From an uncultured Methanosarcinales archaeon (GTDB lineage Archaea; Nanobdellota; Nanobdellia; Woesearchaeales; DATDXC01), in NCBI GenBank assembly GCA_964510025.1, contig CAZDZV010000006.1, positions 11,143 to 75,142 of the forward strand: DNA of 64,000 nt, in the 5' to 3' direction. Below, one piece after another: positions 7,930 to 64,000 of the stretch (the first letter of the stretch is position 1; each line of letters opens with the position of its first letter). A model generated the notes under the pieces. It worked only from the letters and a program-made list of their open reading frames with translations. It was not told the DNA's origin and searched no databases. A program made the position numbers and the translations under genes.

Positions 7930-8004
7930 TTATATTTAATACTTTTTAGCACTATGTTTATATATTTTTTAGGAAGGGGAAAAATCAATGCAAGGGGGTA
8001 GTAC

Positions 8005-9669: not shown

Positions 9670-9710
9670 AAAGGTAAACTATTTAAACATATCAGCAACT
9701 TTAGAGGTAG

Positions 9711-20893: not shown

Positions 20894-20937
20894 AAATCAG
20901 CCGATTATTGAAAAGTCTCTGCTAAAATAATCATAAG

Positions 20938-28598: not shown

Positions 28599-28612
28599 TC
28601 TGCAAGAAGAAA

Positions 28613-30303: not shown

Positions 30304-30309
30304 CATAAT

Positions 30310-38053: not shown

Positions 38054-38170
38054 GGATTCTTTACATTGTCTAAATGAAGGATATAATAGCTCAAGCTACA
38101 ACAAGATGAAACTAAGTACGATACAAATTAAAGAAAGGATTGTAGGTTTGTTCAGTTTAGTAGGAACAAG

Positions 38171-43222: not shown

Positions 43223-43223
43223 G

Positions 43224-44444: not shown

Positions 44445-45595
44445 TTGAAGTGAATATTCTTACAAGGGATTTCTTCCCAGACTACAGTGCGGTGGCTAAA
44501 AAGATGACCGGGCTAGCAGAGGATCTTACAGCTGCCGGCATAGACGTTCAGGTATACACAGCTAATCCGCAGTATTACTGCAGAGAAAAGCCTGAAAAGC
44601 GCAGAAATATCAGAAGGGTTTTATGCACCTCGTTCGATAAGGATAATCTCTTATTGAGGGCCATTAATGAGGTTAGCTTTGGAATATCAATATTTGCTAT
44701 CTTGCTTTTTTCGAAAAAAAAGATGAATATAATCCCCTCTCTTCCATTTTCGCTTCAGCTCTCTGCTCTCCTTTTAAGGAAAATAAGAAACCAGGATTAC
44801 ATCATAATAAACTATGAGATTATGCCCGAACTTATGTGTTCCTCCGGTCTAATGTCATATGATGGCCCCTTCTTCCGGATGCTCAACAAGATAGCCAAGA
44901 AAGTGCTTGATAACGCCAGGTGCATTATTACTTTAACTGCATCTATGAGCAAAAAGCTGGAAAGCAAGGTCAGAAAAAAGATAGTGACTATCCCGAATTG
45001 GACTGACACAGATGTCTATTACCCCATCAAAAGAAAAGAAAACGAATTCTTGAGAAGAAACAAGCTTTCAGATAGCTTCGTTGTATCATACTCAGGTAAT
45101 TTCGGCAGGTACATGGATTTTGATACTGTACTTAAGGCTGCGGAGCTTTTGCCCCAGATAAGATTTCTTTTTATAGGTAATGGGGCGCAAAAGGGCAGAA
45201 TAACCAAGGCAGACAATATTTTTTATCATGATTATCTGCCAAACTCAAGGATCAATGAATCTCTGAATTCCGGAAATATAGCATTGGTGCTTACAAACCA
45301 GAAAGATGACGATTATGTTATGCCGAGCAAGATCCTTGACCTGATGGCTGCTGGAAGGCCAATAGTTGCTGTATCAAGAAATTCGGAGATTAAAAAGATA
45401 ATTGCCAGGTCAAGGAACGGGTTTGTTGTAAATCCTGGAGAACCAGATAGCCTAAAAAGAGCTATTCTGGCCCTGAAGAACGACAAAAAATTGCAGAAAG
45501 AAATGGGCAAAAACTCAAGGGATTATGCTGCTAGACATTTTTCCAGAAAGAAGATTACCGGGCAGTATGTTGAACTGCTGAAGAAAAATTTATAA
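44441..45595 (+). CDS. Family 4 (GT-B) glycosyltransferase
   Basis: GT-B C-terminal block ILDLMAAGRPIVAVSRNSEIKKII. Coupled to neighbours. Confidence 0.6.
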   Translation: MIEVNILTRDFFPDYSAVAKKMTGLAEDLTAAGIDVQVYTANPQYYCREKPEKRRNIRRVLCTSFDKDNLLLRAINEVSFGISIFAILLFSKKKMNIIPSLPFSLQLSALLLRKIRNQDYIIINYEIMPELMCSSGLMSYDGPFFRMLNKIAKKVLDNARCIITLTASMSKKLESKVRKKIVTIPNWTDTDVYYPIKRKENEFLRRNKLSDSFVVSYSGNFGRYMDFDTVLKAAELLPQIRFLFIGNGAQKGRITKADNIFYHDYLPNSRINESLNSGNIALVLTNQKDDDYVMPSKILDLMAAGRPIVAVSRNSEIKKIIARSRNGFVVNPGEPDSLKRAILALKNDKKLQKEMGKNSRDYAARHFSRKKITGQYVELLKKNL

Positions 45596-49944: not shown

Positions 49945-50240
49945 TAAAAACGGAACAAGACAGTTACTCTATATACTTGCCTGCTGGTAAGCCTGTTCTT
50001 TGAATGCAGTCTTCTCGAAATCTTCAGCTCTCCTTTAAAGCTTTTCTTCAGCTTCTTGCCCAGGGAAAGCAGAAATCTGTTCGAAGATATATAATAGTCC
50101 ACCCCTGTCTTCAGCTTCTCAACCTTGGCAATCCATGCTTTCTCGTTGTTCTTAAATTGGTTTTTGATAAACCTGAATGCTTCTTCATCAGGATTTCTTA
50201 GCTGCAGTATTCCCTCAAAATATTGCGGATTTTTTTCCAT
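49941..50240 (-). CDS. Hypothetical small basic protein
   Basis: 99 aa, no recognised motif. Divergent from the signal peptidase gene. Confidence 0.25.
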   Translation of the reverse strand: MEKNPQYFEGILQLRNPDEEAFRFIKNQFKNNEKAWIAKVEKLKTGVDYYISSNRFLLSLGKKLKKSFKGELKISRRLHSKNRLTSRQVYRVTVLFRFY

Positions 50241-50340
50241 GATATTGTTGATATATCTTTTTTTAAATAACTATCTATATTTTTAACTGAATCTCCCTAA
50301 ATAGAAAGCTTTTTATTTAGGCCGTGAACCAATCATAAGG

Positions 50341-50946
50341 ATGGGCAAAAAAAATAATTTTTTAAAAGGTGTCAAAAAAACCTGGAAGTTTATATGGGAG
50401 GATGACAGTCTCCTGAGCTGGATTCTGAACATAATCCTGGCCTTTGTACTCATCAAGTTTATTGTGTATCCCGGCCTGGGTTTTGTTCTTTCGACATCTC
50501 ATCCTATTGTTGCTGTTGTTTCAGGATCTATGGAACATGACCAGGCTTTTGACGGTTGGTGGGAATCAAATGGGGAATGGTATGTTAGTGCTGGGATCAC
50601 CAAAGAGCAGTTTGCAGGTTTCGATTTTCAAGATGGCTTTAATAAAGGCGACATAATGATACTTAGGGGCATAAAAACAAAAGATATAAAAATAGGGGAA
50701 GTGATTGTTTTTGAGAGCAAAAGACCTGACCCCATAATACATAGGGTAGTGAAGAAATGGGAGCAGGATAATGATTACCTGTTTCAGACAAAAGGGGATA
50801 ATAATATCGGCTCTATAAAATCGCCGTATCTGGATGAGACAACTATCGGAGAAGAACGGATCATCGGTAAGGCAGTATTTCGGGTTCCCCTGCTAGGCTA
50901 TATCAAGATATGGTTTGTGGAGCTTATCCAGTTGTTTACAAGGTGA
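50341..50946 (+). CDS. Signal peptidase I (archaeal/eukaryal S26B type)
   Basis: TM anchor, then AVVSGSMEHD (catalytic Ser box) and a DIMILRG-type box. Confidence 0.6.
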   Translation: MGKKNNFLKGVKKTWKFIWEDDSLLSWILNIILAFVLIKFIVYPGLGFVLSTSHPIVAVVSGSMEHDQAFDGWWESNGEWYVSAGITKEQFAGFDFQDGFNKGDIMILRGIKTKDIKIGEVIVFESKRPDPIIHRVVKKWEQDNDYLFQTKGDNNIGSIKSPYLDETTIGEERIIGKAVFRVPLLGYIKIWFVELIQLFTR

Positions 50947-50950
50947 GAAT

Positions 50951-51271
50951 ATGTTTTGTCCAAAATGCGGTTCAATATTGGTGCCAAAAAAAGAAGGTAA
51001 AAAGACAGTAGTTAAGTGCTCCTGCGGCTATAAGGCAAAAAACCAGGAATCTACCATAATCCGTGAGGAGGTGGTGGATAATACTAAAGAAGTAGAGCTT
51101 ATTGATGATGATAAAAGCCTTGAGACCCTGCCTAAGATGAAGGCAGAATGCCCAAAATGCCAGAACAATGAGGCTTATTTCTGGGAAGTGCAGACCAGAG
51201 CTTCAGATGAGCCCGCAACCAAATTTCTTAAGTGCACGAAATGCAAGCATGTGTGGCGGGACTATAATTAA
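50951..51271 (+). CDS. tfs: Transcription factor S / RNAP subunit M
   Basis: MFCPKCGS...CSCGY N-terminal Zn ribbon and C-terminal CPKCQNNEAYFWEVQTRASDEPATKFLKCTKCKHVW (TFIIS-type Zn ribbon with acidic hairpin DE). Start moved to ATG 50951. Confidence 0.8.
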   Translation: MFCPKCGSILVPKKEGKKTVVKCSCGYKAKNQESTIIREEVVDNTKEVELIDDDKSLETLPKMKAECPKCQNNEAYFWEVQTRASDEPATKFLKCTKCKHVWRDYN

Positions 51272-51813
51272 AGTATATAAGGGTTATTTCTAGCTTGCTC
51301 GAGAACACCTACTAGCTGCACCAGGCCCTCAGCTCCTGGAAACCCATTGCCTATATAGCCTCTTGCTCTAAGAATATCGCATGCGTCCCTGAATTCGTCC
51401 CCGCCGCCTGTCACCATCACAACAGCAATACGTTGGGTAGCAGCATCTCTCCCAAGCAAAGCCAGGGTTTCAATGCCTGATTCATCATGAGAATAAGACA
51501 GGGTGTTTCCTGTTCTTGGATGTACAATCTGGATTCTCCTGCTATCAACAGGCTCTCCTTGAACTAATCTTTTTGTGCTATAATTTACAGCTAAGAAAAC
51601 CATCAGTGGATCTAGTTCCCTTACCCTATCAGCTACAGACTCAGGGGTTGTTTCGGCTGAAACAGCTTCTGCAACAGCATCATAACCAGCATCCTTCAGC
51701 GTACTTATGTAAAGATCCGCTAACTCAGTTCTAGGATGAAACACTGCAATCTTATTTGGCATACAGGATATGTATAAAGCTTTACTATATAAATGTTTGT
51801 ATTTAGTTATCAC
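51268..51813 (-). CDS. Hypothetical Rossmann-like protein
   Basis: 181 aa, no confident family. Confidence 0.25.
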   Translation of the reverse strand: MITKYKHLYSKALYISCMPNKIAVFHPRTELADLYISTLKDAGYDAVAEAVSAETTPESVADRVRELDPLMVFLAVNYSTKRLVQGEPVDSRRIQIVHPRTGNTLSYSHDESGIETLALLGRDAATQRIAVVMVTGGGDEFRDACDILRARGYIGNGFPGAEGLVQLVGVLEQARNNPYIL

Positions 51814-52036
51814 TTTTAAGTGATGACTGCCCTACAAACCTAGAATTCTGCAATTTTAGGCTTTAATGCGTCTTTCATGCAAGACATGAATAACGACTCT
51901 GTGCTTCTCTTTGATCGGCCCACATCGGCTTTCTATTTTCATTGAGCCCATTTTATTTATATATAGGCAAGATAATGCTTTGATAATATATAAAAGCTGT
52001 GTTTATTTTGGGGAATTTGTGAGTCGACAAATCCCT

Positions 52037-52966
52037 CTAAATTATGATGTCTTTTAGGATTCCTTGTTTTACTAATTCGATATTTATCAAGTAATCATTA
52101 TGCAGAAAAGTTTCAAATAATGATTTCTTTGTTGTTTTCCATCCAAGACCATCGGTAATCCAAATTAAGTCGATTCCTTGTTTTCTTAAGAAGTCTGATA
52201 AGTACTGATATTCACCAGCTGTTGACTTTAATTTTGACCCACCGCCACTATAATAATTGGTTTCAATTACAAAAATCTTATTTTTTGATTTCTCAAATAC
52301 TGCAAAATCAAATATTCGATTGGTTTTATCAAGTTCAATATCAAAATTCCATTTCTCCTTGATCTTTTTTTGTGTTGCTTGCGGAATGTAGTCCAAGTTA
52401 TTTTTCTCTGAGAATTTCAGTATTATCTTCTCAACAATGCTCTCCATTGATTGACCTGTACGGTTTTTTCTTGCATTTGTATCCATTCCTACTTCGACAC
52501 CAAAGCAATAGTCAACAATATTCTTAACATTTTTATCTTTGAATATACTTTTTAATCCCGATTCCTTAAAGAAAATTAGTATGTCTTCTCTTATATCTGA
52601 AGTAAGCTCAACATCAGGATTAAATAATTCCAGTTTACTACCAGACTTTAGCTCTTCAAAATCATCAATGATGTTTACTGCCTTTAATTTGCTTTTTCTG
52701 ATAGCAATGAGAATTGGAAGAACCTTTCTTACATTTGGATATTCAGTAATAAGTTCAATGAATTCTTTTTCTATATCGCTTTTTCCAATTAACACATTAA
52801 GAAGATTTAGCTCTTTTTCAATTAAGTGAGTGTTATTCTTAACTTTCTCAAAATCAACAAAATAATCCCATGTAAATATGGAATCTGTCAAAGTTTGTAC
52901 AAGATAGTCAAATATCCCTTTCTCATCTTTTAGGTTTAATTTTTCATATGTTTGTAAGTATTTCAT
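52037..52966 (-). CDS. Putative type II restriction endonuclease (DpnII/MboI-like by context)
   Basis: 309 aa, 10 bp downstream of a Dam-class MTase in an operon with two MTases, the dpnM-dpnA-dpnB-like arrangement. Family assignment is contextual, not motif-based. Confidence 0.45.
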   Translation of the reverse strand: MKYLQTYEKLNLKDEKGIFDYLVQTLTDSIFTWDYFVDFEKVKNNTHLIEKELNLLNVLIGKSDIEKEFIELITEYPNVRKVLPILIAIRKSKLKAVNIIDDFEELKSGSKLELFNPDVELTSDIREDILIFFKESGLKSIFKDKNVKNIVDYCFGVEVGMDTNARKNRTGQSMESIVEKIILKFSEKNNLDYIPQATQKKIKEKWNFDIELDKTNRIFDFAVFEKSKNKIFVIETNYYSGGGSKLKSTAGEYQYLSDFLRKQGIDLIWITDGLGWKTTKKSLFETFLHNDYLINIELVKQGILKDIII

Positions 52967-52975
52967 TTCTTCACC

Positions 52976-53809
52976 TTAATAGTTTGTAACGACAACTTCA
53001 TTTATCTTTCCCCTTTTGTCCCCATTACAATTGATCATTCTTGTTGCCTGAACAAAATGGATTTCATAATTAGGATATAATTCTTTAATAAATTTTGTAT
53101 CGCTATTGCTTAACATCACAAGGCAACCATTATCATCCAGTTTTTTGAATACTTCAGCAAGCTGTTTCTGCTCTTCTTCTAAAAATGTGTCTTTTGTGTA
53201 GGTTGTAAAACTCTTTCCTTTTTTAAGTGGATAATAAGGAGGATCAAAATAAATAAAGTCTCCTTTATTTGCTAGATTAACAACCTTTTCGAAAGACATT
53301 ACTTTAATCGTAACATTTTTCAATAATTCTGAAACTAGTCTTAATCTATCTTCTTGGACAATATCTGGATTTTTGTAGGAACCCATCGGAACGTTGAATT
53401 TTCCCTTTGAGTTTACTCTATATAGTCCATTGAAGCAAGTCTTATTTAAATAAATGAATCGTGCTGCTCTTTCAAGAGAAGGTAATTCTTTTGGATTTGT
53501 TGCACGAATTGTTAAATAATATTTTTTGCCTTCAACCATATGATATTCCTTATGCTGTTTTAATTCAATTATTAATCTCTCTACATCACCCCTTATGGTT
53601 TCGTAAGCATTGATTAATTCTTCATTTATGTCTGAAATAATAATTTCAGAAGGATTAAACTTTTGAATTATATAGAAGAAAACTGCTCCGCTACCAACAA
53701 AAGGCTCTAAATAGCGATTAAACTTCTTTGGAAATAATGGCTCAAACTGTTCTAAAAGTTGACCTTTACCGCCTGCCCATTTAACAAATTTGGGGATTTG
53801 GATATTCAT
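52976..53809 (-). CDS. Dam-class (alpha) N6-adenine DNA methyltransferase
   Basis: KWAGGKGQLL (motif X), EPFVGSGAVFF (motif I), IYFDPPYY (motif IV), in alpha order. Confidence 0.85.
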   Translation of the reverse strand: MNIQIPKFVKWAGGKGQLLEQFEPLFPKKFNRYLEPFVGSGAVFFYIIQKFNPSEIIISDINEELINAYETIRGDVERLIIELKQHKEYHMVEGKKYYLTIRATNPKELPSLERAARFIYLNKTCFNGLYRVNSKGKFNVPMGSYKNPDIVQEDRLRLVSELLKNVTIKVMSFEKVVNLANKGDFIYFDPPYYPLKKGKSFTTYTKDTFLEEEQKQLAEVFKKLDDNGCLVMLSNSDTKFIKELYPNYEIHFVQATRMINCNGDKRGKINEVVVTNY

Positions 53810-55563
53810 TTTTTATTCTCCACCAATTCAGAAACAAATACTTTTAAATTGTCTGTTACCAAATAACTTTTTTCTAATAATTTTTCACATATCATCTTAC
53901 AAATATACTTTTTCAACCCTTCATCACAGAAATTAATCACTTCTTTATCTGAATTTTTACTTTTTATCTTTTCAGTTGCAAAATTCAAAATTTCACTATT
54001 ATTATATGCCTGATTTGTTCTTTCCTTAAATTCATCATAAGCCATAATAGTATAGTGGTTTCTTTTATCTTTTAAAAATTCATTAATTGTTTCTAAAATT
54101 AATTTTGGTTCAAAAATATCTTCAATCTCAAAATTAGCTACATTATTTTCATAATTATCAAAACGCTTAACATATTTACATTCTACACTAAAACAGTTAT
54201 ATGTTTTTGACTTTATTTGTTGAAATATACTTTTTCCAGCTGTATCAAAATCAAAAAGTGCGATAATTTTTGGCTTAAAAGATAGATTATTGCAAAACAA
54301 TTCTAGAAATTGTAGGTAACCTTTATATTTATCAACCCCTCCTGCAACAAGAATATTAGGTTTGATAATTTTTAGTTGTTCAAATAATGCAAATAAATAA
54401 TCTTTATCTTCCTGTCCTTCCACCAATAGATTGAAAGGCAAGATCTCCCAAGAATCATTCTTAGAAATTCCTAGGTGCTCTTTGACCATGTACACTTTTT
54501 CAATACCTGCAGCATTATTTATTCTTGTATTTACTTCATAGAATTTCTCGTCTTTTTTCCTGATGTATTCTTTTAATTGTATATCTGCTTCTAGCAAAAC
54601 TACTTCTTCCACTTTCTCAAGCCGTATAAAATTTGGAGAATGTGTATTAATAATGGTTTGATATTTTTTTGAAAGTTGAAACAAGATATCACTTACCCTT
54701 TTCTGAAGTGATGGTTGAAGAAATGCTTCTGGCTCGTCAAACCCCCAGATAATCTCTTTTCCAGTTTTATCAGATATATATTCGATTAAAGAGTATAAAA
54801 CAATTCTCTGAATTCCGCTCCCTTTTGTTTCAATTTTGTTTGAATTGCTATCAATCAGAGTAAAATCAATTAAATCAGATAAAACTTCTCGTAAGTTAAT
54901 GTATTTTGGGAATAGAATTTCTGCCCTCCATAATGAATTATCTATCCCATTAATTCCATTTGTATATTTTTTGATATTTTCAGTAAGTTCTTTTTTTATT
55001 TCTACTAATGCCTTTTCAGATTCTTCAATAAAAGTATTCAAATGTTCCATTGGTTTTGTTTTTCTTTTTCTCAGATTATCCAGGGGAGTTAATAATTCAT
55101 TACTAACAAACCTTGCAATCTCTTTAGAAGTGTCAATATTACTAGCTTCGACCATAATAAATTGATATTTATTTAGAACATTTTTACAATCTTTATCGCT
55201 CATTAGGGTTTCTTGTTTACCTTTTACTTTTATTTTGCCCTCTATCGTTAATGATTTGATTCCCTTTTTCTGCTCTTTATATGTTGTAGAAATAGTAATT
55301 CTATCTTGATTTTTATTAACAAATTCAGCTGTGATTTTTGTTCTGAATCCTGCTCCTCTTTTTCCATAGTAGATATGATGAGGAATATCCTCGTTAGCAT
55401 TAAATTTATTTTCGTCTAACGAGAAGAACAAATTTATAGCTCGTAATACATTTGTTTTACCAACATTATTTGAACCACAAATGATTTTATAGTTATCATT
55501 AGAGAAATCAATCTTTAACTTACTTATTGATCTGTAATTACTTATACTTATTTTCTTTAACAT
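53806..55563 (-). CDS. OLD-family ATP-dependent nuclease: ABC-type ATPase (AAA_15/21-like) fused to C-terminal Toprim
   Basis: Walker A ICGSNNVGKTNVLRAI, Walker B/D-loop IIWGFDEPEAFLQPS, Toprim glutamate LLVEGQEDKDYL and DxD LFDFDTAGKS. 4-nt overlap with the Dam gene start. Confidence 0.75.
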   Translation of the reverse strand: MLKKISISNYRSISKLKIDFSNDNYKIICGSNNVGKTNVLRAINLFFSLDENKFNANEDIPHHIYYGKRGAGFRTKITAEFVNKNQDRITISTTYKEQKKGIKSLTIEGKIKVKGKQETLMSDKDCKNVLNKYQFIMVEASNIDTSKEIARFVSNELLTPLDNLRKRKTKPMEHLNTFIEESEKALVEIKKELTENIKKYTNGINGIDNSLWRAEILFPKYINLREVLSDLIDFTLIDSNSNKIETKGSGIQRIVLYSLIEYISDKTGKEIIWGFDEPEAFLQPSLQKRVSDILFQLSKKYQTIINTHSPNFIRLEKVEEVVLLEADIQLKEYIRKKDEKFYEVNTRINNAAGIEKVYMVKEHLGISKNDSWEILPFNLLVEGQEDKDYLFALFEQLKIIKPNILVAGGVDKYKGYLQFLELFCNNLSFKPKIIALFDFDTAGKSIFQQIKSKTYNCFSVECKYVKRFDNYENNVANFEIEDIFEPKLILETINEFLKDKRNHYTIMAYDEFKERTNQAYNNSEILNFATEKIKSKNSDKEVINFCDEGLKKYICKMICEKLLEKSYLVTDNLKVFVSELVENKK

Positions 55564-55579
55564 TATTTCCCCAGTATAG

Positions 55580-56365
55580 TCAAATAAGCTTATTCTTTAT
55601 AGAGTTTATCCTTTTTATTGTGGTTTTTAAAAAATTCTCCTCTTTATCAATACCTATAAATTGTCGATTAAGCATACTTGATACAACCCCTGTAGTACCA
55701 GATCCATTAAATGGATCTAGTACAACGGCATTTTCTTTTGTTGAAGATGCGATAATTCTTCTCAATAATTCTATTGGCTTTTGAGTGGGATGCTTTCCAT
55801 GAGTCTTTTCGCTCATTGGAGTTAACGGAATATGCCAAATGCTCCTCATTTGTTTACCTTTTGGAGCAATATTATCATCCCATTCCCTCATTAAATCATA
55901 ATTAAAAACATGAGGAATCTTCCCATCTTTTCTTGCCCATAAAACAGTTTCATGTGCATGAGCAAAATACCTGCAGCTTAAATTTGGTGGTGCATTAGGT
56001 TTAAACCATGCAATTTCATTTAATAATTTGAAATTGAGCTTTTGTAACGCATATCCTACTTGGTATATATTATGCATTGTCCCAGAAATCCAAATAGTAC
56101 CATTATCTTTTAATACCTTACGACATGCATTTATCCATTCATAAGTGAATTTGAAATCTTTGTCTATTCCATTAGATTTATCCCAGTCTGCTTTATTAAC
56201 TGAGACCATTTTACCAGCCCTGCAAGAGATCCCTCCGTTAGATAGGAAATAAGGTGGATCTGCAAAAACCATATCAACAGATTTTTCAGGTAATGTGTTT
56301 AGAATACTAATACAATCATTATGGAAAAGTTGCACAGTTTCAGACTTGTAATAGGGTTTAATCAT
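55580..56365 (-). CDS. Beta-class N6-adenine/N4-cytosine DNA methyltransferase (DpnA-like)
   Basis: VFADPPYFLSNGG (motif IV) near the N-terminus and DPFNGSGTTG (motif I) near the C-terminus, the beta-class order. Confidence 0.8.
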   Translation of the reverse strand: MIKPYYKSETVQLFHNDCISILNTLPEKSVDMVFADPPYFLSNGGISCRAGKMVSVNKADWDKSNGIDKDFKFTYEWINACRKVLKDNGTIWISGTMHNIYQVGYALQKLNFKLLNEIAWFKPNAPPNLSCRYFAHAHETVLWARKDGKIPHVFNYDLMREWDDNIAPKGKQMRSIWHIPLTPMSEKTHGKHPTQKPIELLRRIIASSTKENAVVLDPFNGSGTTGVVSSMLNRQFIGIDKEENFLKTTIKRINSIKNKLI

Positions 56366-56495
56366 TTATAAATCTAATAAAGTCCTTTATTATAAACTTT
56401 GTTATTAAACTTTCGAAATATTACTATTTTCTTTGCAATGAGCCGTCTCATCGCCCCCTCTCTTCGCAGATCCTTCTATATACAATGCAAGCCTT

Positions 56496-57113
56496 ATGTA
56501 TTACATACTCCGAACGTTGCTTATAAACGATGGGAGCCTTAAATTAGGTGGTGATAAAATGACCTTGGAATATAAGCGTGAACCTCTAGAAGAGGATGAA
56601 GTGTTGGCTTTAAGGAGAGCATCTACTTTCTTTGAAGAAGAATTAGTTATAAACTGTCTGTTAGATACTGGCATGAGAGTATCAGAGCTTGCCAACCTAA
56701 GAGAAGAAAATATCTCCTGGCAAAGAAACTGTATCAGCTTGATAGGAAAAGGTAATAAGCGTAGGGTGATCCCAATGAGTAAAAGAGTAAGGCTACTCCT
56801 ATTAGACTGTTTTTCTCACAATAATACCAAATTTCCATTAGCCATGCGAACAATCCAAAAATATGTTAAAATCGTGGCAGACAAGGCAAGGATAAGAAAA
56901 ACTGTAAGCCCTCACGTGCTAAGACACACATTTGCAGTAACCTATCTTCACAGAGGAGGCAATTTAAGGGCATTACAGGCTATTCTAGGGCATAGTTCCA
57001 TAACAACTACTGATATTTACCTCAACTACTCAGGGAAGCGAGTTATTGATGATTTTCAAAGAATATGGAATGAGCCAGATACAAATAACAAGTTATTGAC
57101 GGGGTATTTTTAA
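56496..57113 (+). CDS. Short tyrosine recombinase (catalytic domain only)
   Basis: TGMRVSEL (Arg), HVLRHTFAVTYL (HxxR), GHSSITTTDIYLNY (catalytic Tyr). The likely true start is the internal ATG near 56559 (MTLEYK...). Confidence 0.7.
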   Translation: MYYILRTLLINDGSLKLGGDKMTLEYKREPLEEDEVLALRRASTFFEEELVINCLLDTGMRVSELANLREENISWQRNCISLIGKGNKRRVIPMSKRVRLLLLDCFSHNNTKFPLAMRTIQKYVKIVADKARIRKTVSPHVLRHTFAVTYLHRGGNLRALQAILGHSSITTTDIYLNYSGKRVIDDFQRIWNEPDTNNKLLTGYF

Positions 57114-57115
57114 AA

Positions 57116-58162
57116 ATGGCAAAAAACATCTTCTTTTTTATTATTAAGCATGGAGCTTTGCTTGGCATAGCATTTCCATTTATATTATCCATAAAAATAA
57201 GCACATCTCCTTTTGGTTTGGTACATTTAGTGTTAACCCTAATTATTTTGGAATACTATGCTTATTCCATACACCAGTTTTTATTTGATTTTCAGGATAA
57301 AAGAAGAAAGTTAAGAATAAAAAAATTTGAAGAGTCTAAACTGATTGATAAATTCCTAAATGCTAAATTAGATTACTCTAAATCTTCAGAACTATTAGAG
57401 TTAATTTCTATTATAAAGAATACAGAATTCTTGCCAAAATTAAAAGAAATGTATAATCAGAAAATCGAAGAAAAAATGATTTATGCTGAAAGACTACTTG
57501 AGAAATTACAGCACCAAGAAGAAATACAAGAACTTGAGCTGAAGAAAAGTCAACTTAATAACAACATTCAATATCTAATAAAGCAAGAAAAGGAGATGAC
57601 TCAAACAGAAGAAGAAAGGAAGGAAGATCTAAAGGGGGAGATGAATCTTGAAGAAAATAAGGTGTTTGAAGAGTCAGATCTTACTGATGAAAAAGCAAAT
57701 TTTCTTCTGGAAGAAGGATACGAACAAACCAATCAATATTCAATTATGGAAGAAGGAAATATCTCGGTTTATATCAAACCCGTACTTAATCATTCAAAAT
57801 CACATATGTTTTTGGTTTACGAATTAAAGCAGATTTTGGAACATTGGTATGAAGCTGAAAACATAGAAGAGCATCTAACAAAGGATGCAGACCTTACTTT
57901 CAAGTATAACAAGAAAATCTACGCTCTGGAAGTTGAGACAGGAACATTGCTGAAAAAGAAAGACCAAGCTAGAGATAAAGTAGAATATCTAAATAGGAAA
58001 TATCAAAACAGATGGATGTTCATAGTAACAAATAGAAACCAAGTGGCTAAATACAAGAAATTAGGAATAGTCAGTGAGAGAAAGCAGGTGACAAAAAATC
58101 TTGATAAGATGCTAAAACTCCGCACCCCCCTAGATCGGGTGTCTGAGGAATTTCCCGACTAA
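57116..58162 (+). CDS. Membrane-anchored coiled-coil protein with C-terminal PD-(D/E)xK/Hjc-like motif
   Basis: Two N-terminal TM helices, a ~150-aa coiled coil, then HMFLVYELKQ...DADLTFKYNKKIYALEVETGTLLKKK...RWMFIVTNRN, which fits a D...(E/D)xE...K restriction-endonuclease-like core. 3 nt after the integrase stop. Confidence 0.3.
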   Translation: MAKNIFFFIIKHGALLGIAFPFILSIKISTSPFGLVHLVLTLIILEYYAYSIHQFLFDFQDKRRKLRIKKFEESKLIDKFLNAKLDYSKSSELLELISIIKNTEFLPKLKEMYNQKIEEKMIYAERLLEKLQHQEEIQELELKKSQLNNNIQYLIKQEKEMTQTEEERKEDLKGEMNLEENKVFEESDLTDEKANFLLEEGYEQTNQYSIMEEGNISVYIKPVLNHSKSHMFLVYELKQILEHWYEAENIEEHLTKDADLTFKYNKKIYALEVETGTLLKKKDQARDKVEYLNRKYQNRWMFIVTNRNQVAKYKKLGIVSERKQVTKNLDKMLKLRTPLDRVSEEFPD

Positions 58163-58215
58163 AAAATCACTAAAATAGTCACTTATTCAATCTCCGTATA
58201 ATATCACTTCTTATA

Positions 58216-58977
58216 TTACATAAGGCTATTTTCCAGCTTCTCAATTTTTACAAGCATCTCGTACTTCTCTTTGAATTCTTCCATACTTAACTCTCCCTCC
58301 ACATACTTCATCTTGAGTGCTTCCAATGGTTCAATTGTAGATTCTTTTGTGGATTGCTTCGGCTCTCTCTTCGTACCAAAAGCCATGTTTATCTTGTTTT
58401 GTAAGTCTTTATTTGTAATGTAAGCATAGATTTGGGTAGTATGGATATCAACATGCCCAAGAGATCTCTGAACATAGTAGAGGTCGACTCCTTTTTCTAG
58501 TAGATAGGTTGCATAGGTATGTCTCAATGTATGAAAACTGTAAGCATACCTTTGCTGTCCAAGTTGTGTTTTGAAAGTCTCGATACTAAGCTTAGCTTTC
58601 AGAAGATATTTTCTAAAATGCTTGCTTAAAATGTTGTTAGCAAATGGTCTTCCAGAATAGTTTGAAATAAAATACTCTGATTCATCTGAAAGCCTGAACC
58701 ATTTCTCAATCAATGGTTTGACTTTTTCAGGTAGCATCACTACTCTGTCTTTGCTACCTTTTCCCTGTCTTACAATTACCCTTTCAGCTTCAAGATCAAC
58801 ATCTTGTTTTTTCAGATTGCAGACTTCACTTATACGCAGACCACAAAACAAGGCAATAATACAGCCCATAAATATATTTGCATCATCAATCTGCTCAAAA
58901 AGTGCCATTAATTGCTTTTTATTGAAAACATTAGGTAGTTTTCTTTTTGTATTTGGTCTCCCGAATCTCATCTTCAC
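58216..58977 (-). CDS. Tyrosine recombinase/integrase (XerC/D-like catalytic domain)
   Basis: GLRISEV (Arg), HTLRHTYATYLL (HxxR), GHVDIHTTQIYAYI (Tyr). Confidence 0.8.
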   Translation of the reverse strand: MKMRFGRPNTKRKLPNVFNKKQLMALFEQIDDANIFMGCIIALFCGLRISEVCNLKKQDVDLEAERVIVRQGKGSKDRVVMLPEKVKPLIEKWFRLSDESEYFISNYSGRPFANNILSKHFRKYLLKAKLSIETFKTQLGQQRYAYSFHTLRHTYATYLLEKGVDLYYVQRSLGHVDIHTTQIYAYITNKDLQNKINMAFGTKREPKQSTKESTIEPLEALKMKYVEGELSMEEFKEKYEMLVKIEKLENSLM

Positions 58978-59381
58978 ATCCTCGCAATAAGGTTTAATCC
59001 ATGATCCCTGATCACTTGGGTTACATCTTCAAACCTTTCCTGTCTTCGCTTTAAAGCCTCAGAAACCGCTTTTTTCTGCGATATAGTCCTCTGCTTGATC
59101 TGGAACTTGATGTCAATCGGAATCTTTTCTAAAAGCAACCATCTGTAAACCGTAAAGGGGTTATAGCTACTTTTGATAAGAAAATCATACAACTCCTTCT
59201 CTAGCCCAAGAACTAGAAACTTCTTCCTATTATAATGAAAATGAGCTAATTTACCCATAATCTGCAAGAAATCACGACTCTCTAGCTGAGGAAGACGACT
59301 ATATACCAATTTCCTCAAGCATTCTAGCTTCTGGACAAAATTTTTCTGCATATCTGCTTGTTTCACGACCGACACCCCCAT
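58974..59381 (-). CDS. Hypothetical protein 4-nt coupled upstream of the integrase (possible detached N-terminal core-binding domain)
   Basis: 135 aa, basic and helical. 135+253 aa equals the usual full-length integrase size. Confidence 0.3.
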   Translation of the reverse strand: MGVSVVKQADMQKNFVQKLECLRKLVYSRLPQLESRDFLQIMGKLAHFHYNRKKFLVLGLEKELYDFLIKSSYNPFTVYRWLLLEKIPIDIKFQIKQRTISQKKAVSEALKRRQERFEDVTQVIRDHGLNLIARM

Positions 59382-59507
59382 GTCAGCTCAATAAGAAAGA
59401 AAAGACCGACGTGAACTCACAAGATGCAGAATCTATAAATCTTTCTATTATTTACTATTAATTAGTAATAACATATCCTTAAAAATATTGGATTATCTAT
59501 ACAATAT

Positions 59508-59738
59508 ATGGATATCGAAGGGCCTGTATTCAGGATTATCGTAAAGCCGAGCAGTCCAAATAATAAGGTGCTTGGCTATGATAAGGCTAAAAAAGCATAT
59601 AAGGTACAGATAAAAGCAAAACCAGAAAAAGATAAGGCTAACATTGAAACAGTAAAATTTTTGTCCAGATTGCTTAAGAGAAAGGTAAAGATAATAAAAG
59701 GCTTCAGGAGTAAGCAGAAGATACTATCTTTTGAATAA
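59508..59738 (+). CDS. DUF167 (YggU/UPF0235) family protein
   Basis: 76 aa. IIVKPSSPNNKV ... AKPEKDKANIETVKFLSRLLKRKVKIIKGFRSKQK matches the DUF167 consensus (pattern ...G(K/R)AN..l...l...v.i..G..s..K). Confidence 0.55.
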   Translation: MDIEGPVFRIIVKPSSPNNKVLGYDKAKKAYKVQIKAKPEKDKANIETVKFLSRLLKRKVKIIKGFRSKQKILSFE

Positions 59739-61688
59739 TTTTCGCCTAACCAGGACCACCAAGATAATAAGGATACCGAAGATAGTCAGGAGGCCGCCTA
59801 AAATGTCAGCAAAAGTCTTTCCATAATAAAGCCTGACATGCTCTGATTCTGGATATACAAGCATAAAGCTTGGGCTAACCAGGTATACCTTATCCGCTCC
59901 TTGCACCTTCCAGTTAGGGAAGTAGGAAACCTTGATTACATGCGGTTTGCCTGTGCAGTCTGTCCTGAATATGATTTCTTCGTCGCTAATTAGCTCTTCG
60001 TTTATTTCACATGCATTATCGATCTTTTTTATGGCCATATTTTCAGCTGAATTCTCAAAGACAACATAATAGCTCAGATTAGACTGCTCAAACCATATCA
60101 TGGAATTTTTTTTCCAGTTCCTCCTCGGATATGTCAGTGGACGATATTTTGGAACTTCGATATATCCTGTCTGGCTGATTTCATATATCTCAATATTTTC
60201 TATCTTCTCCAAAAGCCGGAAACCTGGATGATTCCTAGCCTTGAATTTTACAGAATCAGAGGTAGCTAAGAAATATCTTATGTTGAATAGTCCCATATGT
60301 TTCAGGCCCCTGTCAATATCGACATCAGGGCAGCTCAGGCCCATGATAGGGCAGGAAGCATTTTCAGATAGCTCTGCCTGCATTATGAAATGGAAAGGTG
60401 CTGTGATAGATGAGTCTACAAACAGCCCGGTGATTACTGGTTTATTCGCAAAAACAGGTATAGTCTCAAATGCTCTTGGACTCCCGAATCTGTCATGAGA
60501 GTCGCTGTATTCGTAGAAAATCCTTCCATCAGGCAGATTCTTGAGATAATGTGTTAGTTCAAAGAAAGAACCTTCTTTTTTTTCCAAACCTTCATAGTTC
60601 CATTTTATCCAGCTGGGGGTGTACGCTGTTGTCAGGTTGGCGTATACTAGGACAAGAAGGACAAATAATACGATAAAAATCTCAGTATATTTGGTCTTTT
60701 CTAGAAGATTCTTTATCGGTATAGCGGCCAGAAGCAGCATGAACAGGTAAACAAAAGGTAAAAATCTCACGTTCCATATATGGCCATCTGGCAGTGCAAA
60801 AAAGACAACAAGGGACACAAAGACTATATACATAAAGAAACGTATACGCTCATCCTTGAAGTATAGGATAGCCCCTAAGATTGCGACTGCATAGAAGACA
60901 ATAAGTGTGGGCGGAACTAGAAGCATGATGTTATGCAGCTGGTTCCAGTTGTAGGAGGTTGTATAGCCTATCTTAGCCATGAATGGAACTGACCAGAAAG
61001 CAGAAAGCGAAAAAGCCAGCAGTCCAATTTTCGTAAGATAGACAGAATTATGCTTCAACCTCCTTTGTAGTAAAAAAAAGACCGAGCCTAACGCCGCTAT
61101 CACTGCAACAAAAACATGCGTTAAGGCTATGGAAGCCAGCAACACCGAGTTCAAAATGATATGCTTCCTATGCTTAATGCCATAGTAGAGAAAACCGAAA
61201 TACACCAGCAGTAGTGAAATTGCAATGCTGTGACAAAACTCGCCTGCTAAAGTGCTGGCAATATTACCCCCATACATAGAATGGCTCTCTAAAAAAAGGA
61301 AAGGCAGCACCAGGACAGAGGCTATGACTGGCTTTCTTATGCCCATAAGCTTGAACATCAGATAGGCTGAAGCTGGTAAGGAAAATATTCCTATGACTGT
61401 AATGATCCTAAATGCCAGCTCCAGCGGGATTACATAGGACAAGCCGGCAATTAGTAGAAAAGGCAGCTGGAAATAAAACTGAAACATTGGCAGCCCTGCA
61501 AACCAGGACAAAGAAAAACCTGAAATCCTGCCTTTACCCAGGCTCTCCCTCATAAATCCTGCTGCATGATAATGTGATATAGTGTCTCCTCCAGCCACAG
61601 CCTCAGACTGAAAAACCAGCTGCGGGCTGAAGTAAGCAAATAAGAAAGAGTAGATTATAACCAAAATCAGCATATCTATGTATTTCAT
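59724..61688 (-). CDS. Large polytopic membrane protein with C-terminal soluble domain (possible ArnT/PMT-like glycosyltransferase-C fold)
   Basis: About 13 TM helices in the first ~400 aa, a ~230-aa extracytoplasmic C-terminal domain, and a final TM. No WWDYG (AglB) motif seen. Confidence 0.3.
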   Translation of the reverse strand: MKYIDMLILVIIYSFLFAYFSPQLVFQSEAVAGGDTISHYHAAGFMRESLGKGRISGFSLSWFAGLPMFQFYFQLPFLLIAGLSYVIPLELAFRIITVIGIFSLPASAYLMFKLMGIRKPVIASVLVLPFLFLESHSMYGGNIASTLAGEFCHSIAISLLLVYFGFLYYGIKHRKHIILNSVLLASIALTHVFVAVIAALGSVFFLLQRRLKHNSVYLTKIGLLAFSLSAFWSVPFMAKIGYTTSYNWNQLHNIMLLVPPTLIVFYAVAILGAILYFKDERIRFFMYIVFVSLVVFFALPDGHIWNVRFLPFVYLFMLLLAAIPIKNLLEKTKYTEIFIVLFVLLVLVYANLTTAYTPSWIKWNYEGLEKKEGSFFELTHYLKNLPDGRIFYEYSDSHDRFGSPRAFETIPVFANKPVITGLFVDSSITAPFHFIMQAELSENASCPIMGLSCPDVDIDRGLKHMGLFNIRYFLATSDSVKFKARNHPGFRLLEKIENIEIYEISQTGYIEVPKYRPLTYPRRNWKKNSMIWFEQSNLSYYVVFENSAENMAIKKIDNACEINEELISDEEIIFRTDCTGKPHVIKVSYFPNWKVQGADKVYLVSPSFMLVYPESEHVRLYYGKTFADILGGLLTIFGILIILVVLVRRKLFKR

Positions 61689-61689
61689 C

Positions 61690-62868
61690 TCAGATATTCA
61701 AAATTCTTGAAACGTTCTCCTTGATTCTTTTTTCAAAATCTGAAACCTTCTCGCCCTCATTTCTTCCGGTAGAAAGCACCTTCATAAGTTCTTTTGTAAT
61801 CTCCAGATTGCCTGCATTTTCCCTGATAAGCTTATCCTCAATATCCTCGACACTGTCAGCATCTATCTTAATCTCATCAAACTCCTTGGTTGTTAAGGAT
61901 ACGGTATTTTTCATGACAAAATATGCTCCTTTATCATATATCATCTGGATGATGCTCTTAAAGTCGATATCAGAAGGTTTCCCTGTCTCCAGCACGCCGC
62001 CTAACCTTATGGTCACGATTGTATTGATAAACTCCTTATCCTTGATTTCGTCCTTAAGCATCGATTCCACCTGCTCCACGGTCCTGTGGTCGCATTCCAG
62101 CTTTATAGGATAGGTGTTGTAGATCTGCACAGGTTCCCAGCTAAGCTGGCCTTCTTCGTAAATATAGAAGCCGCCGTTTCCTAGTTTTTCCAGCTCCGAG
62201 AAGTTGTTTGGAAAAAGCGGCCCTGGATATGAGATCATACCATAGCCTTGCTCAGCCTTATTGTAGACAAAATGTGGATGTCCGCCAGCGTAGTAATTGA
62301 AATTCCTTGGAAGCAGGGAGATGGGTTGCGAATCTGCATTTTGCATCTCCTTTGGCTTTAGCTCTGTCAGCAATGAGTGGAACATGAAAATTTTGAAGCC
62401 ACCTTCCTTTTCCAGAGGATCCCGGTTAAGTTCTTCATAAAAACCCTTTTCAAGGCCCCCTCTTTTGCCCACCAGCCCTGTAATCTTTGCTCCTGTAATC
62501 TCATCTATGGTGAACTGCAGGTCCAGCTTCCCGTCCTTTACCTTGCCTCTAGCTACGTTTATGCATAAACCAGCATTTTCGAGCACATCCAGCATAGTCT
62601 TTCCAGAAGGTGAAAAATCGTGGCTGCCTGCAATTATATAGAAAGGGATTCCTTTGTCCTTGATCTCCTTGAGCTTTTTTGTGACCGCTTTAAGCTTGTC
62701 GATGGCTGGCAAAGAAGTATTGAAAAGGTCACCTGAAACTATGATAAAGTCGACTTTTTTGCTTGCTGCAAGGTCAATTGCCTTTTGGAATGCCTGCAGG
62801 CTTATGTTGTTTAGCTTAGGGTCTCTCCAGCTGCCAATATGGCAGTCTGCCAGATGAGCGAATTTCAT
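61690..62868 (-). CDS. mre11: Mre11 DNA double-strand-break repair nuclease
   Basis: Phosphoesterase motifs HLADCHIG (I), GDLFN (II), IIAGSHD (III), and downstream His motifs (HSLL, GGHPH). Confidence 0.85.
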   Translation of the reverse strand: MKFAHLADCHIGSWRDPKLNNISLQAFQKAIDLAASKKVDFIIVSGDLFNTSLPAIDKLKAVTKKLKEIKDKGIPFYIIAGSHDFSPSGKTMLDVLENAGLCINVARGKVKDGKLDLQFTIDEITGAKITGLVGKRGGLEKGFYEELNRDPLEKEGGFKIFMFHSLLTELKPKEMQNADSQPISLLPRNFNYYAGGHPHFVYNKAEQGYGMISYPGPLFPNNFSELEKLGNGGFYIYEEGQLSWEPVQIYNTYPIKLECDHRTVEQVESMLKDEIKDKEFINTIVTIRLGGVLETGKPSDIDFKSIIQMIYDKGAYFVMKNTVSLTTKEFDEIKIDADSVEDIEDKLIRENAGNLEITKELMKVLSTGRNEGEKVSDFEKRIKENVSRILNI

Positions 62869-62901
62869 ATTAGCAGGTAATCGACAAATATATATAAAGA
62901 T

Positions 62902-64000
62902 TTATGATAATTTGATGCCGCTAAAATCTCTTGGGCTATCAGATTTATCTTTCCTGGAAAAATTATCGAAGAGGCTGATCTTTATAGGCGTGGCGAACCT
63001 AGCGAAGTTGCTTGAAAGGATAGCTTCGCCCACATCTAGCGAAGCGATGTTCCTGTCGTCCTCGCTAAGATCCTGGGCTGCTGAATCTATGATGGCCTGT
63101 CTTTCAGGCTTCATCTCTATGCCCAAGATTATCTTAGTATTTATATTTGCCAGTATCTGCCTCGGTATCAGAGAGGGCAGCTGCGTTATGGCTGTCAGAC
63201 CAACTTTAAATTTCCTTCCTTCCCTAGCGATCGTGGAAAATATATTTGGACCTTTTTCCAGGACTTCCTTGCCTAGCACTCTGGGTGCTTCTTCTAATAT
63301 TATTGAAATAACAGGCTTGTCCCGTAAAGTCCCTTCTGTTTTGTAATGCTTGTATTTGTTAAAGACCTCTGTGCTAATGAGGCTGCCGATCAGGATCTCT
63401 ATTTCACCAGCATATCCTGAAGTGTCTATTATTACTGTTTTGCTTGCTTCAAGCTCTTGGCCTATATCCCTTAATGTCGAAATCCCGCTCTTAAGCTGGA
63501 AGATACCGTTAAAAAATAGCTGGTTATCTGCAAAATCAATATCCAACAGCCTGAGCATCCTTCTTCTTAGGACAGCAAGTGTAGCTTCATTGAACCCATC
63601 CACTGGTTTCTCCAGGATTATGGCTTCGATCCATTTTTTTTGGTATTTGTGATAAAAGGCAGCCAGGCCTTCCCTTTGGGCCTGCGACCAGTCAACGACC
63701 CCGTTGAAATGTGCAGGTCTGATGAGCTCCAGGTTTATCCTAAGGGTTTTGCCCCCGGGAGGGGCATCTTTTGGCCGGTAATATACGATATTATTCTTAG
63801 TAGGGTGGTTCTTTATCCTACCATAGTACTCATCATGAGGATCAAGGACAAGTATGCCGCAGTAATCCTTGTCGATGCTGTCCCAGAGCATGCATGACAT
63901 AAGGTTAGATTTTCCTTTTCCTGTTGTTGCAGGAATAAGGATATGATGTGAGAAAGCCTTTACACCATCCAGGTATATGCCTACATCCAACACCTTGCTG
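62902..64000 (-). CDS. herA: HerA-type FtsK/HerA-superfamily ATPase, 5'-truncated by the window edge
   Basis: Walker [13 protein letters not shown], Walker [11 protein letters not shown], and a C-terminal arginine-finger region. Immediately upstream of mre11, as in archaeal herA-mre11 operons. The N-terminal HAS-barrel region must lie beyond 64000. Confidence 0.7.

What the first reader, a model, noticed from the sequence alone, without database searches (positions are those of the whole stretch)
53806..55563. Stand-alone (class 1-like) OLD nuclease: ABC ATPase with DEPE Walker-B plus C-terminal Toprim
Walker A (GSNNVGKTNVLRAI), DEPEAFLQP and Toprim E (LLVEGQEDKD) plus DxD (DFDTAG) are all visible. 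No UvrD/GajB-like helicase gene is adjacent, so it is not a classical Gabija or class 2 OLD. Its partners are methyltransferases. Archaeal OLD homologs in R-M context are poorly studied.
Basis: seen in the sequence. Interest (0 to 1): 0.7.

Follow-up and report, generated by a model that had tools for sequence, protein, structure and literature searches.

The report
OLD nuclease embedded in DpnII restriction cassette
The gene is a real, intact OLD-family ATPase-nuclease, but it is not free-standing: it sits as an optional extra gene inside a complete, horizontally acquired GATC restriction-modification operon of a DPANN archaeon, most likely as a second layer of anti-virus defence.

Summary

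The OLD gene lies inside a tightly packed four-gene operon: N6_N4 MTase, OLD, Dam-type MTase, DpnII REase. This low-GC cassette (0.295 against 0.40 for the host) sits beside tyrosine recombinase genes in a Woesearchaeota/Nanoarchaeota-like genome.

A 71%-identical OLD sits in the same cassette in a probably bacterial contig. An equally close cassette (L082) is collinear but lacks exactly the OLD ORF, so OLD is a dispensable embedded module.

In 55 other species, about 40% of family members lie in or beside R-M operons: DpnII/Dam type, type I in the prrC slot, BglII, C5 MTase. The rest stand alone, including in prophages. No helicase, reverse transcriptase or retron RNA is present.

The most likely role is an ATP-regulated two-metal nuclease acting as backup or synergistic defence. 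I rate it a new variant of a known kind, of moderate interest.

The parts
53806..55563 (-). OLD-family ATPase-Toprim nuclease gene (585 aa), the finding itself
   Evidence: ORF. Pfam AAA_15 1.4e-24 and PADLOC Old 4.5e-29. AF2 model pLDDT 84 with Foldseek top hits GajA, TsOLD and retron Eco8. dN/dS 0.13 against the 71% relative.
54574..55563 (-). ABC ATPase region (residues 1-330): Walker A at 55453..55476, Walker B D276/E277 at 54733..54738, H308. It includes a lower-confidence helical insert (residues 141-245, 54829..55143) in the place of the OLD dimerisation domain.
   Evidence: Motifs read and positions. Alignment to GajA residues 5-326. pLDDT 59-78 over the insert. Invariance.
54109..54438 (-). 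Toprim core (residues 376-485): E382 and D386 (54406..54420), DxD D438/D440 (54244..54252), E479/E481/D482
53809..54108 (-). C-terminal helical bundle (residues 486-585) carrying near-invariant K551 (53911..53913). It is the fastest-evolving part of the protein.
   Evidence: Five helices in both models. K551 conserved in 48 of 50 sequences while K487 is variable. 52% identity and dN/dS about 0.42 against L001.
55580..56365 (-). N6_N4 (beta-class, DpnA/CcrM-like) DNA methyltransferase, first gene of the operon
   Evidence: PF01555 9.1e-61 and PADLOC MTase_II 1.3e-99. DPPY and FNGSG motifs in the translation. 88% identical to the L001 gene.
52976..53809 (-). Dam/DpnM-type D12-class N6-adenine methyltransferase. 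Its ATG overlaps the OLD stop codon (ATGA).
   Evidence: PF02086 7.4e-68 and TIGR00571 dam 9.7e-92. Junction read.
52037..52966 (-).
   Evidence: PF04556 3.5e-90 over profile positions 2-277 of 278, and PADLOC REase_II 2.5e-92.
56386..56396 (-). TATA-box-like element TTTATAATAAA about 26 nt upstream of the first ATG of the operon (candidate archaeal promoter)
   Evidence: Read directly. Not tested functionally.
52044..56407 (.). Extent of the mobile cassette: the only DNA shared with the related contig L001 (78% nt identity over 4391 nt). GC 0.295 against 0.40 in the host.
   Evidence: blastn. GC content.
56496..58977 (.). Adjacent island flank: two tyrosine-recombinase genes (56496..57113 +, 58216..58977 -) around an unannotated 348-aa ORF
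   Evidence: PF00589 6.9e-28 and 1.5e-32. GC 0.347. An integrase also flanks the cassette in L001.

Best explanation
The ORF encodes an intact OLD-family enzyme. It has an N-terminal ABC ATPase with a helical insert, a two-metal Toprim nuclease domain and a C-terminal helical bundle. The gene is an optional 'embedded' defence module lodged precisely between the two methyltransferase genes of a mobile DpnII-type (GATC) type II R-M cassette. A DPANN archaeon acquired that cassette horizontally, probably from a low-GC bacterial lineage.

OLD is co-transcribed and translationally coupled with the R-M genes, so it is made whenever the R-M system is made. I infer that it acts on its own as an ATP-regulated nickase or exonuclease, in the manner of P2 Old, TsOLD and VcOLD. 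In that role it gives a second line of defence: it attacks or aborts infections that the DpnII system fails to stop, such as methylated, GATC-poor or anti-restriction-encoding invaders. This follows the logic of PrrC, RloAB and PARIS at type I R-M loci.

Shown: domain identity, conserved catalytic residues, purifying selection, operon embedding, presence/absence polymorphism, and recurrent R-M linkage across the family. Inferred: nuclease activity, the defence role, and what triggers it.

For: Catalytic residues are conserved in 50 homologues, and dN/dS is 0.13 against the 71% relative.

Operon structure: a 16-nt gap with a G-rich ribosome-binding site, an ATGA overlap and a 9-nt gap.

Module behaviour: the same four-gene order occurs in L001. 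The equally related cassette L082 is collinear and lacks exactly the OLD ORF. Its blastn blocks end at L001 9998 and resume at 11751, and the OLD gene is 10001..11758. Only 1 of 80 DpnII loci has an OLD nearby, so the R-M system works without it.

Recurrence: among 55 species representatives with near-full-length homologues, 20 have the gene in a tight same-strand run with R-M genes. Fourteen are DpnII/D12/N6_N4/MutH-like with varying gene order. Three are HsdM-HsdS-OLD-HsdR. The others are BglII, a C5 MTase and a type IIG enzyme. Three more lie nearby. These members are scattered over at least 9 branches of a neighbour-joining tree.

Autonomy: about half of the family members stand alone, including as cargo next to the integrase of Vibrio Vinavirales prophages.

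Literature: RloAB (ATPase plus Toprim) lies inside type I R-M, and PARIS is triggered by anti-restriction proteins (PMC10802264). Defence genes are found embedded in other defence systems, and the ABC-ATPase-Toprim fusion HEC-04 has been validated (bioRxiv 10.1101/2024.01.29.577857). OLD-ABC/Toprim modules have been proposed as backup effectors (PMC12839542). VcOLD is a defence nickase (PMC12392090).
Against: No experiment bears on this protein or on any member of its subfamily. The trigger is unknown and I found no sensor-specific feature. Roughly half of the family has unrelated neighbours, so R-M linkage is not obligatory. Defence genes cluster in islands in any case, and part of the linkage could be inherited rather than independently gained. 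dS is saturated (about 1.4-1.6), so the dN/dS values are rough. For E. coli YbjD the Toprim domain was dispensable for the phenotype (PMC13261556), and P2 Old is reported there to cleave tRNA, so the substrate may not be DNA. Whether an archaeal host expresses a bacterial-type cassette is unknown.
Confidence: 0.6

Rival explanations
1. Integrated helper of the R-M system. OLD works with DpnII rather than independently. For example, a 5'-3' exonuclease or nickase could destroy GATC-cut fragments before they are repaired or methylated, standing in for RecBCD/AddAB in small-genome hosts (CPR bacteria, DPANN archaea).
For: There is translational coupling within the operon. The linkage is preferentially with GATC systems: 14 of the 20 operonic cases. 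Several of the closest relatives are from Patescibacteria. P2 Old and TsOLD are 5'-3' exonucleases on linear dsDNA (PMC10568477, PMC7049728).
Against: The same subfamily also sits in type I, BglII, C5-MTase and type IIG contexts and stands alone in many genomes and prophages. That argues against dependence on one enzyme. 79 of 80 DpnII cassettes have no OLD. No physical interaction was tested.
Confidence: 0.2
2. Incidental neighbour. This is an ordinary autonomous class 1 OLD that landed in an R-M operon by chance, or hitch-hikes because both are mobile defence cargo, with no functional coupling.
For: About half of the family stands alone. OLD is a clean presence/absence polymorphism. Class 1 is described as single genes in variable neighbourhoods (PMC12796447, PMC10568477).
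Against: Twenty of 55 species have it in a tight same-strand run with R-M genes, in different gene orders and R-M types and on many branches. The position between hsdS and hsdR repeats the known prrC slot. The 4-nt overlap with the next gene implies selection for co-expression.
Confidence: 0.13
3. Addiction or stabilisation toxin. The nuclease strengthens post-segregational killing so that the selfish R-M cassette is harder to lose.
For: The cassette is mobile (recombinases adjacent, foreign GC). OLD proteins are toxic when misregulated (PMC13261556).
Against: No antitoxin-like partner is present. Close cassettes persist without it. Lone copies are common.
Confidence: 0.05
4. Housekeeping archaeal OLD (Cran1-like cell-cycle ATPase-nickase), or a RecF/SbcC-type repair ATPase.
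For: The host is an archaeon. An archaeal OLD class with a cell-cycle role exists (PMC12796447). There are weak SMC_N and RecF N-terminal hits.
Against: The gene lies in a foreign low-GC cassette, all named relatives are bacterial, and it is absent from an otherwise identical cassette. RecF scores 39.8 bits against a cut-off of 172. A Toprim domain is present.
Confidence: 0.02

Closest known systems
Class 1 OLD nucleases (P2 Old, Thermus scotoductus OLD 6P74, V. cholerae OLD, E. coli YbjD)
   Same: A single polypeptide with an ABC ATPase, a helical insert and a Toprim domain. No helicase, RT or split partner. The best PADLOC model is 'Old'. The metal-A/B acidic residues align with TsOLD E377/D381/D431/D433. 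Family members occur as lone prophage cargo, as P2 old does.
Class 2 OLD / Gabija GajA (BpOLD 6NK8, BcGajA)
   Different: No GajB/UvrD-like helicase next to it, elsewhere in the window, or among recurrent neighbours of the family. GajA HMM matches cover only the ATPase part.
PrrC/EcoprrI, RloAB and PARIS (AriAB): ABC-ATPase-based effectors linked to R-M loci or triggered by anti-restriction proteins
   Different: Here ATPase and Toprim are fused, whereas AriA/AriB and RloA/RloB are split. The effector is Toprim, not the PrrC anticodon nuclease. The host system is mostly a type II GATC R-M. No trigger is known.
DpnII cassette of Streptococcus pneumoniae (dpnM-dpnA-dpnB)
   Same: The same three enzyme families are present: a Dam-type D12 MTase, an N6_N4 MTase and a DpnII REase. 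That the pneumococcal cassette has these three genes is my own background knowledge.
   Different: The gene order differs (N6_N4 first) and a fourth, unrelated OLD gene is inserted between the two MTases. 79 of 80 related cassettes lack it.

Membership tests
OLD family nucleases | N-terminal ABC-type ATPase with Walker A, signature, Walker B and H-loop | tested here: met
   AAA_15 1.4e-24. Motifs at residues 30-37, 247-253, 276-277 and 308, invariant in the family. Aligns to GajA residues 5-326.
OLD family nucleases | C-terminal Toprim fold with a conserved Glu and DxD (metal A) and a second acidic cluster (metal B) | tested here: met
Class 1 OLD | No UvrD/PcrA/Rep helicase, RT or split partner; a stand-alone gene | tested here: inconclusive
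   No helicase or RT and no retron RNA: that part is met. The gene is not stand-alone, though, because it is operonic with three R-M genes. It fits class 1 only as a residual category.
Class 1 OLD | Catalytic Arg/Lys in the loop just after the metal-B residues (TsOLD R487, P2 K550) and no C-terminal helical bundle (PMC7049728) | tested here: not met
   Position 487 is mostly E or D in the family. About 100 residues of helices follow the Toprim core, with a near-invariant K551. I could not measure spatial proximity of K551 to the metal site, because no model coordinates were available.
Class 2 OLD / Gabija | GajB (UvrD-like helicase) gene immediately downstream | tested here: not met
   The downstream genes are the D12 MTase and DpnII. 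No helicase family occurs among the window's large ORFs or among recurrent family neighbours.
Class 3 OLD (retron effectors) | Adjacent reverse transcriptase and msr/msd ncRNA | tested here: not met
   All neighbours are identified as MTases, a REase and recombinases. The Rfam scan of 50000..61000 found nothing at E<=0.1.
Class 4 OLD / PARIS | Separate AriA (ATPase) and AriB (Toprim) genes | tested here: not met
   Both domains are in one ORF. The AriA HMM matches only residues 1-313.
Class 5 / Cran1 archaeal OLD | Sulfolobales-type core gene with a cell-cycle role | not tested
   No Cran1 sequence was available for comparison. Context argues against membership: a foreign cassette, bacterial relatives and a presence/absence polymorphism.
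DpnII-type type II R-M system (the operon) | DpnII-family REase plus cognate adenine MTase(s), all intact | tested here: met
   PF04556 3.5e-90 at full length, PF02086 7.4e-68 and PF01555 9.1e-61, with catalytic DPPY motifs present. GATC specificity is inferred from family membership and was not tested.
MADS / PD-Lambda-5 (methylase-associated defence) | Full-length match to the system-specific proteins | tested here: not met
   MAD3 scores 39.4 bits against a cut-off of 420. The D12 MTase matches MTase_II at 3e-100 but PD-Lambda-5_B only at 3.8e-16.

The most novel reading that the evidence does not exclude
This subfamily could be a dedicated R-M-coupled guard: a single-polypeptide counterpart of PARIS or PrrC. 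It would be held inactive by, or would monitor, the methyltransferase/endonuclease proteins of type II GATC and type I systems. It would fire its Toprim nuclease when a virus inhibits or evades restriction. Its rapidly evolving C-terminal helical bundle would be the sensing or partner surface. The whole guarded cassette would move between CPR bacteria and DPANN archaea.
Probability: 0.2. Interest if true: 0.7.

Novelty: new variant of a known kind. Interest (0 to 1): 0.45.

Why it matters
Reviews describe class 1 OLD nucleases as isolated genes with few known functions. Here a coherent and rather rare subfamily (76 clusters at 50% identity) is repeatedly nested in R-M operons. Natural cassettes exist that differ only by the OLD gene. 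That gives a ready-made matched pair for testing whether, and how, an OLD nuclease backs up or cooperates with a type II restriction system. It would extend the PrrC/RloAB/PARIS 'guarded R-M' idea from type I to type II systems and to a fused ATPase-Toprim enzyme. It also documents a likely bacterium-to-DPANN-archaeon transfer of a layered defence cassette. The general principle that defence genes embed in other defence systems is already published, so the advance is incremental rather than conceptual.

Tried and rejected

(2) Pfam Toprim_Old did not hit the window protein. Only sub-threshold DUF3226 was found.

(3) Attachment-site search. Direct and inverted repeats around 50800..60000 gave only short matches that look like chance, and there is no tRNA gene in the window. 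The island boundaries are not defined beyond the shared 52044..56407 block.

(4) An exact look-up of the window protein's contig failed, and cluster look-ups carried no names. Host taxonomy was inferred from aIF5B relatives instead.

(5) Helicase partner elsewhere. Ten large ORFs in the window were scanned and none is UvrD-like.

(6) Viral origin. Only 2 loci were found in IMG/VR and 2 full-length prophage copies in GenBank phages, all lone genes. The cassette is not evidently viral.

(7) The plasmid collection gave only distant (<28% identity) partial matches.

(8) RecF/SbcC, Gabija, retron, PARIS, MADS and PD-Lambda-5 memberships were considered and rejected (see the membership table).

(9) The unannotated 348-aa ORF gave nothing in Pfam, NCBIfam, PADLOC or PHROGs, except a sub-threshold CoiA nuclease-like hit on its C-terminus.
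Full report
OBSERVATION. The window has an uninterrupted 585-codon ORF at exactly 53806..55563 on the minus strand. These are Walker A G30-T37, an ABC signature-like K247-GSGIQR, Walker B D276-E277 (DEPEAFLQP), H308, the Toprim Glu E382 with D386, and the DxD D438/D440. Pfam gives AAA_15 at E=1.4e-24. PADLOC's best model is 'Old' at E=4.5e-29, covering residues 2-446 and so including the Toprim Glu and the DxD. RecF and RecN models match only the first ~47 residues, far below their cut-offs.

CATALYTIC LAYOUT. The acidic residues have the spacing of TsOLD E377/D381/D431/D433 and of BpOLD E400/E404/D455/D457. In 50 genomic homologues K36, E277, H308, E382, D386, D438 and D440 are invariant, counting one alignment gap at K36. 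E481, D482 and K551 are conserved in 47-49 of the 50. The basic residue that TsOLD (R487) and P2 Old (K550) place just after the metal-B residues is not conserved here. Instead a near-invariant K551 sits in a ~100-residue helical bundle after the Toprim core, which is the arrangement reported for class 2 BpOLD K562 (PMC7049728). By context the protein falls in class 1, but its nuclease region is built more like class 2. That is not alarming, because class 2 is reported to be nested within class 1 phylogenetically (PMC12796447).

SURROUNDINGS. On the same strand, in order, lie:
- an N6_N4 MTase (55580..56365);
- OLD (53806..55563);
- a Dam/D12 MTase (52976..53809);
- a full-length DpnII-family restriction endonuclease (52037..52966; PF04556, 3.5e-90).

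The gaps are 16 nt, -4 nt (ATGA overlap) and 9 nt. Each start has a purine-rich ribosome-binding site, and a TATA-like TTTATAATAAA lies about 26 nt before the first ATG. This is one operon: a complete GATC-type type II R-M system with an OLD gene in the middle.

The cassette has GC 0.295 against 0.40 for the rest of the window. It is followed by two tyrosine-recombinase genes. The host is a DPANN archaeon. It has TFS, aIF5B and HerA-Mre11 genes, and its aIF5B is 65-71% identical to Woesearchaeota/Nanoarchaeota proteins. No UvrD-like helicase, reverse transcriptase or Rfam RNA is present.

THE CASSETTE ELSEWHERE. The closest OLD homologue (71% identity) lies on a 939-kb metagenomic contig (L001) in the same four-gene order. 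Its R-M genes are 85-88% identical to the window's. DNA similarity between the two contigs covers only window 52044..56407, which is exactly the four genes. L001 has a native-looking GC of 0.25-0.30 and a bacterial-type AspRS with a GAD domain. The archaeal copy is therefore most simply explained as an import from a low-GC bacterial lineage.

I then scanned metagenomes with a DpnII alignment. Locus L082 has R-M genes just as close (82-85% identity) and collinear, but it has no OLD. Its blastn blocks against L001 end at position 9998 and resume at 11751, and the OLD gene occupies 10001..11758. OLD is thus a clean gene-sized presence/absence polymorphism, and the R-M system does not need it. Only 1 of the 80 DpnII loci examined (L131) had an OLD homologue nearby.

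SELECTION. Against L001, dN/dS is 0.13 for OLD and 0.03-0.06 for the R-M genes. The OLD C-terminal helical bundle is the fastest-evolving part (52% identity, dN/dS about 0.42). dS is saturated, so these are rough values. The gene is maintained by selection but evolves faster than its neighbours.

THE FAMILY. The subfamily is coherent: about 585 aa, with 36-47% identity over the full length. It is fairly rare, with 76 clusters at 50% identity at E<=1e-30 among 1.84 billion representatives. Every relative with an organism name is bacterial. These include Patescibacteria, Bacteroidota, Psychrobacter, Halobacillus and Neisseria.

I examined 55 species-representative loci with near-full-length homologues. 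In 20 the gene is in a tight same-strand run with R-M genes:
- 14 are with DpnII/D12/N6_N4/MutH-like genes in at least five different gene orders;
- 3 are HsdM-HsdS-OLD-HsdR, the slot that prrC occupies in the prr locus;
- 1 each is next to a BglII endonuclease, a C5 methylase and a type IIG enzyme.

Three further loci have R-M genes within a few genes. These R-M-linked members are scattered over at least nine branches of a rough neighbour-joining tree. The remaining loci have unrelated or other defence neighbours (Fic, CRISPR-Cas). Two Vibrio Vinavirales prophages carry a lone copy beside their integrase, as P2 carries old. The protein can therefore evidently work alone, yet it has a marked and recurrent tendency to lodge inside R-M operons.

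MECHANISM. What is shown:
- an intact ATPase-Toprim enzyme under purifying selection;
- co-expression with a GATC R-M system;
- dispensability for that system;
- recurrent embedding in R-M operons.

What is inferred from characterised relatives is metal-dependent nicking or exonucleolytic cleavage, regulated by the ATPase (PMC7049728, PMC12392090, PMC10568477), with a role in defence.

The best-supported model (confidence about 0.6) is an autonomous second-line nuclease that covers failures of restriction. It parallels PrrC, RloAB and PARIS, and the published 'embedded defence' and 'backup effector' ideas (PMC10802264; bioRxiv 10.1101/2024.01.29.577857; PMC12839542). The main rival (about 0.2) is direct cooperation, for example degrading GATC-cut fragments in small genomes that lack RecBCD. 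Incidental co-location (about 0.13), an addiction role (about 0.05) and a housekeeping Cran1-like or RecF-like role (about 0.02) are less likely.

Two caveats apply. YbjD does not need its Toprim domain for its phenotype, and P2 Old is reported to cut tRNA (PMC13261556). The substrate is therefore uncertain.

NOVELTY AND VERDICT. OLD nucleases, DpnII cassettes and the nesting of defence genes inside other defence systems are all known. What I did not find described in the papers I searched is the following combination:
- a fused ATPase-Toprim OLD subfamily habitually embedded in type II (mainly GATC) R-M operons as well as type I operons;
- a class-2-like nuclease region without a helicase partner;
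- natural cassettes that differ only by this gene;
- its presence in a DPANN archaeon through probable inter-domain transfer.

Reviews still describe class 1 OLDs as isolated genes (PMC10568477). I rate it a new variant of a known kind, with interest 0.45.

Noticed in passing
window 52044..56407 versus L001 9147..13528: The cassette is 78% identical at nucleotide level between a DPANN-archaeal window (host GC 0.40) and a 939-kb low-GC contig with a bacterial-type AspRS (GAD domain). This suggests a recent bacterium-to-archaeon transfer. The closest other OLD relatives are from Patescibacteria (CPR).
   Followed up: partly
window 57116..58162 (+): A 348-aa ORF lies between the two recombinase genes. 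It has an N-terminal hydrophobic segment, a Glu/Lys-rich middle and a C-terminus with only a sub-threshold CoiA nuclease-like (PD-(D/E)xK) hit (E 0.002, 18.7 bits against a cut-off of 20.3). It has no family in Pfam, NCBIfam, PADLOC or PHROGs and could be another island cargo nuclease.
   Followed up: partly
whole window: GATC occurs 206 times against 258 +/- 14 expected from dinucleotide-preserving shuffles, below all 100 shuffles. This is a mild depletion of the site recognised by the acquired R-M system.
   Followed up: no
L001 19637..21740: About 6 kb from the cassette, the related contig carries an RloB (Toprim-like) gene next to an AAA_21 ATPase gene. This is a split ATPase-plus-Toprim pair of the RloAB/AbiL type in the same neighbourhood.
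   Followed up: no
L081 (PQ189369.1) 1310..3067; also PQ189310.1: Vibrio cyclitrophicus Vinavirales (PM2-like) prophages carry a full-length member of this OLD subfamily (33% identity) directly beside the integrase. The depositors labelled it 'Retron_I_B ATPase_TOPRIM', but no RT is annotated.
   Followed up: partly
L017, L021, L022 (OLD at about 3905..5644, 7974..9710 and 7971..9707): In three unrelated bacteria the homologue sits between hsdS and hsdR of a type I R-M operon, with overlaps or gaps of at most 18 nt. This is the same position as prrC in the E. coli prr locus.
   Followed up: partly
L039 6300..9791: In Kingella denitrificans the homologue directly follows cas7 and cas4 of a CRISPR-Cas locus (gap 37 nt).
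   Followed up: no
L003, L005, L031 and relatives (downstream of OLD): Five loci, mostly in the Flavobacteriia clade of lone OLD genes, have a Fic/DOC-family gene within two genes downstream.
   Followed up: no
window 17070..45595 (+): A long run of about 28 co-directional, tightly packed ORFs of 250-600 aa, with lower GC (0.35-0.39) than the flanks, includes an ABC exporter (35152..36963). It may be a surface-polysaccharide or glycosylation cluster. It was not annotated.
   Followed up: no
window 61690..63993 (-): Mre11-like phosphoesterase and HerA helicase genes (archaeal HerA-Mre11 repair cluster) border the island. The window ends inside or just after herA.
   Followed up: no
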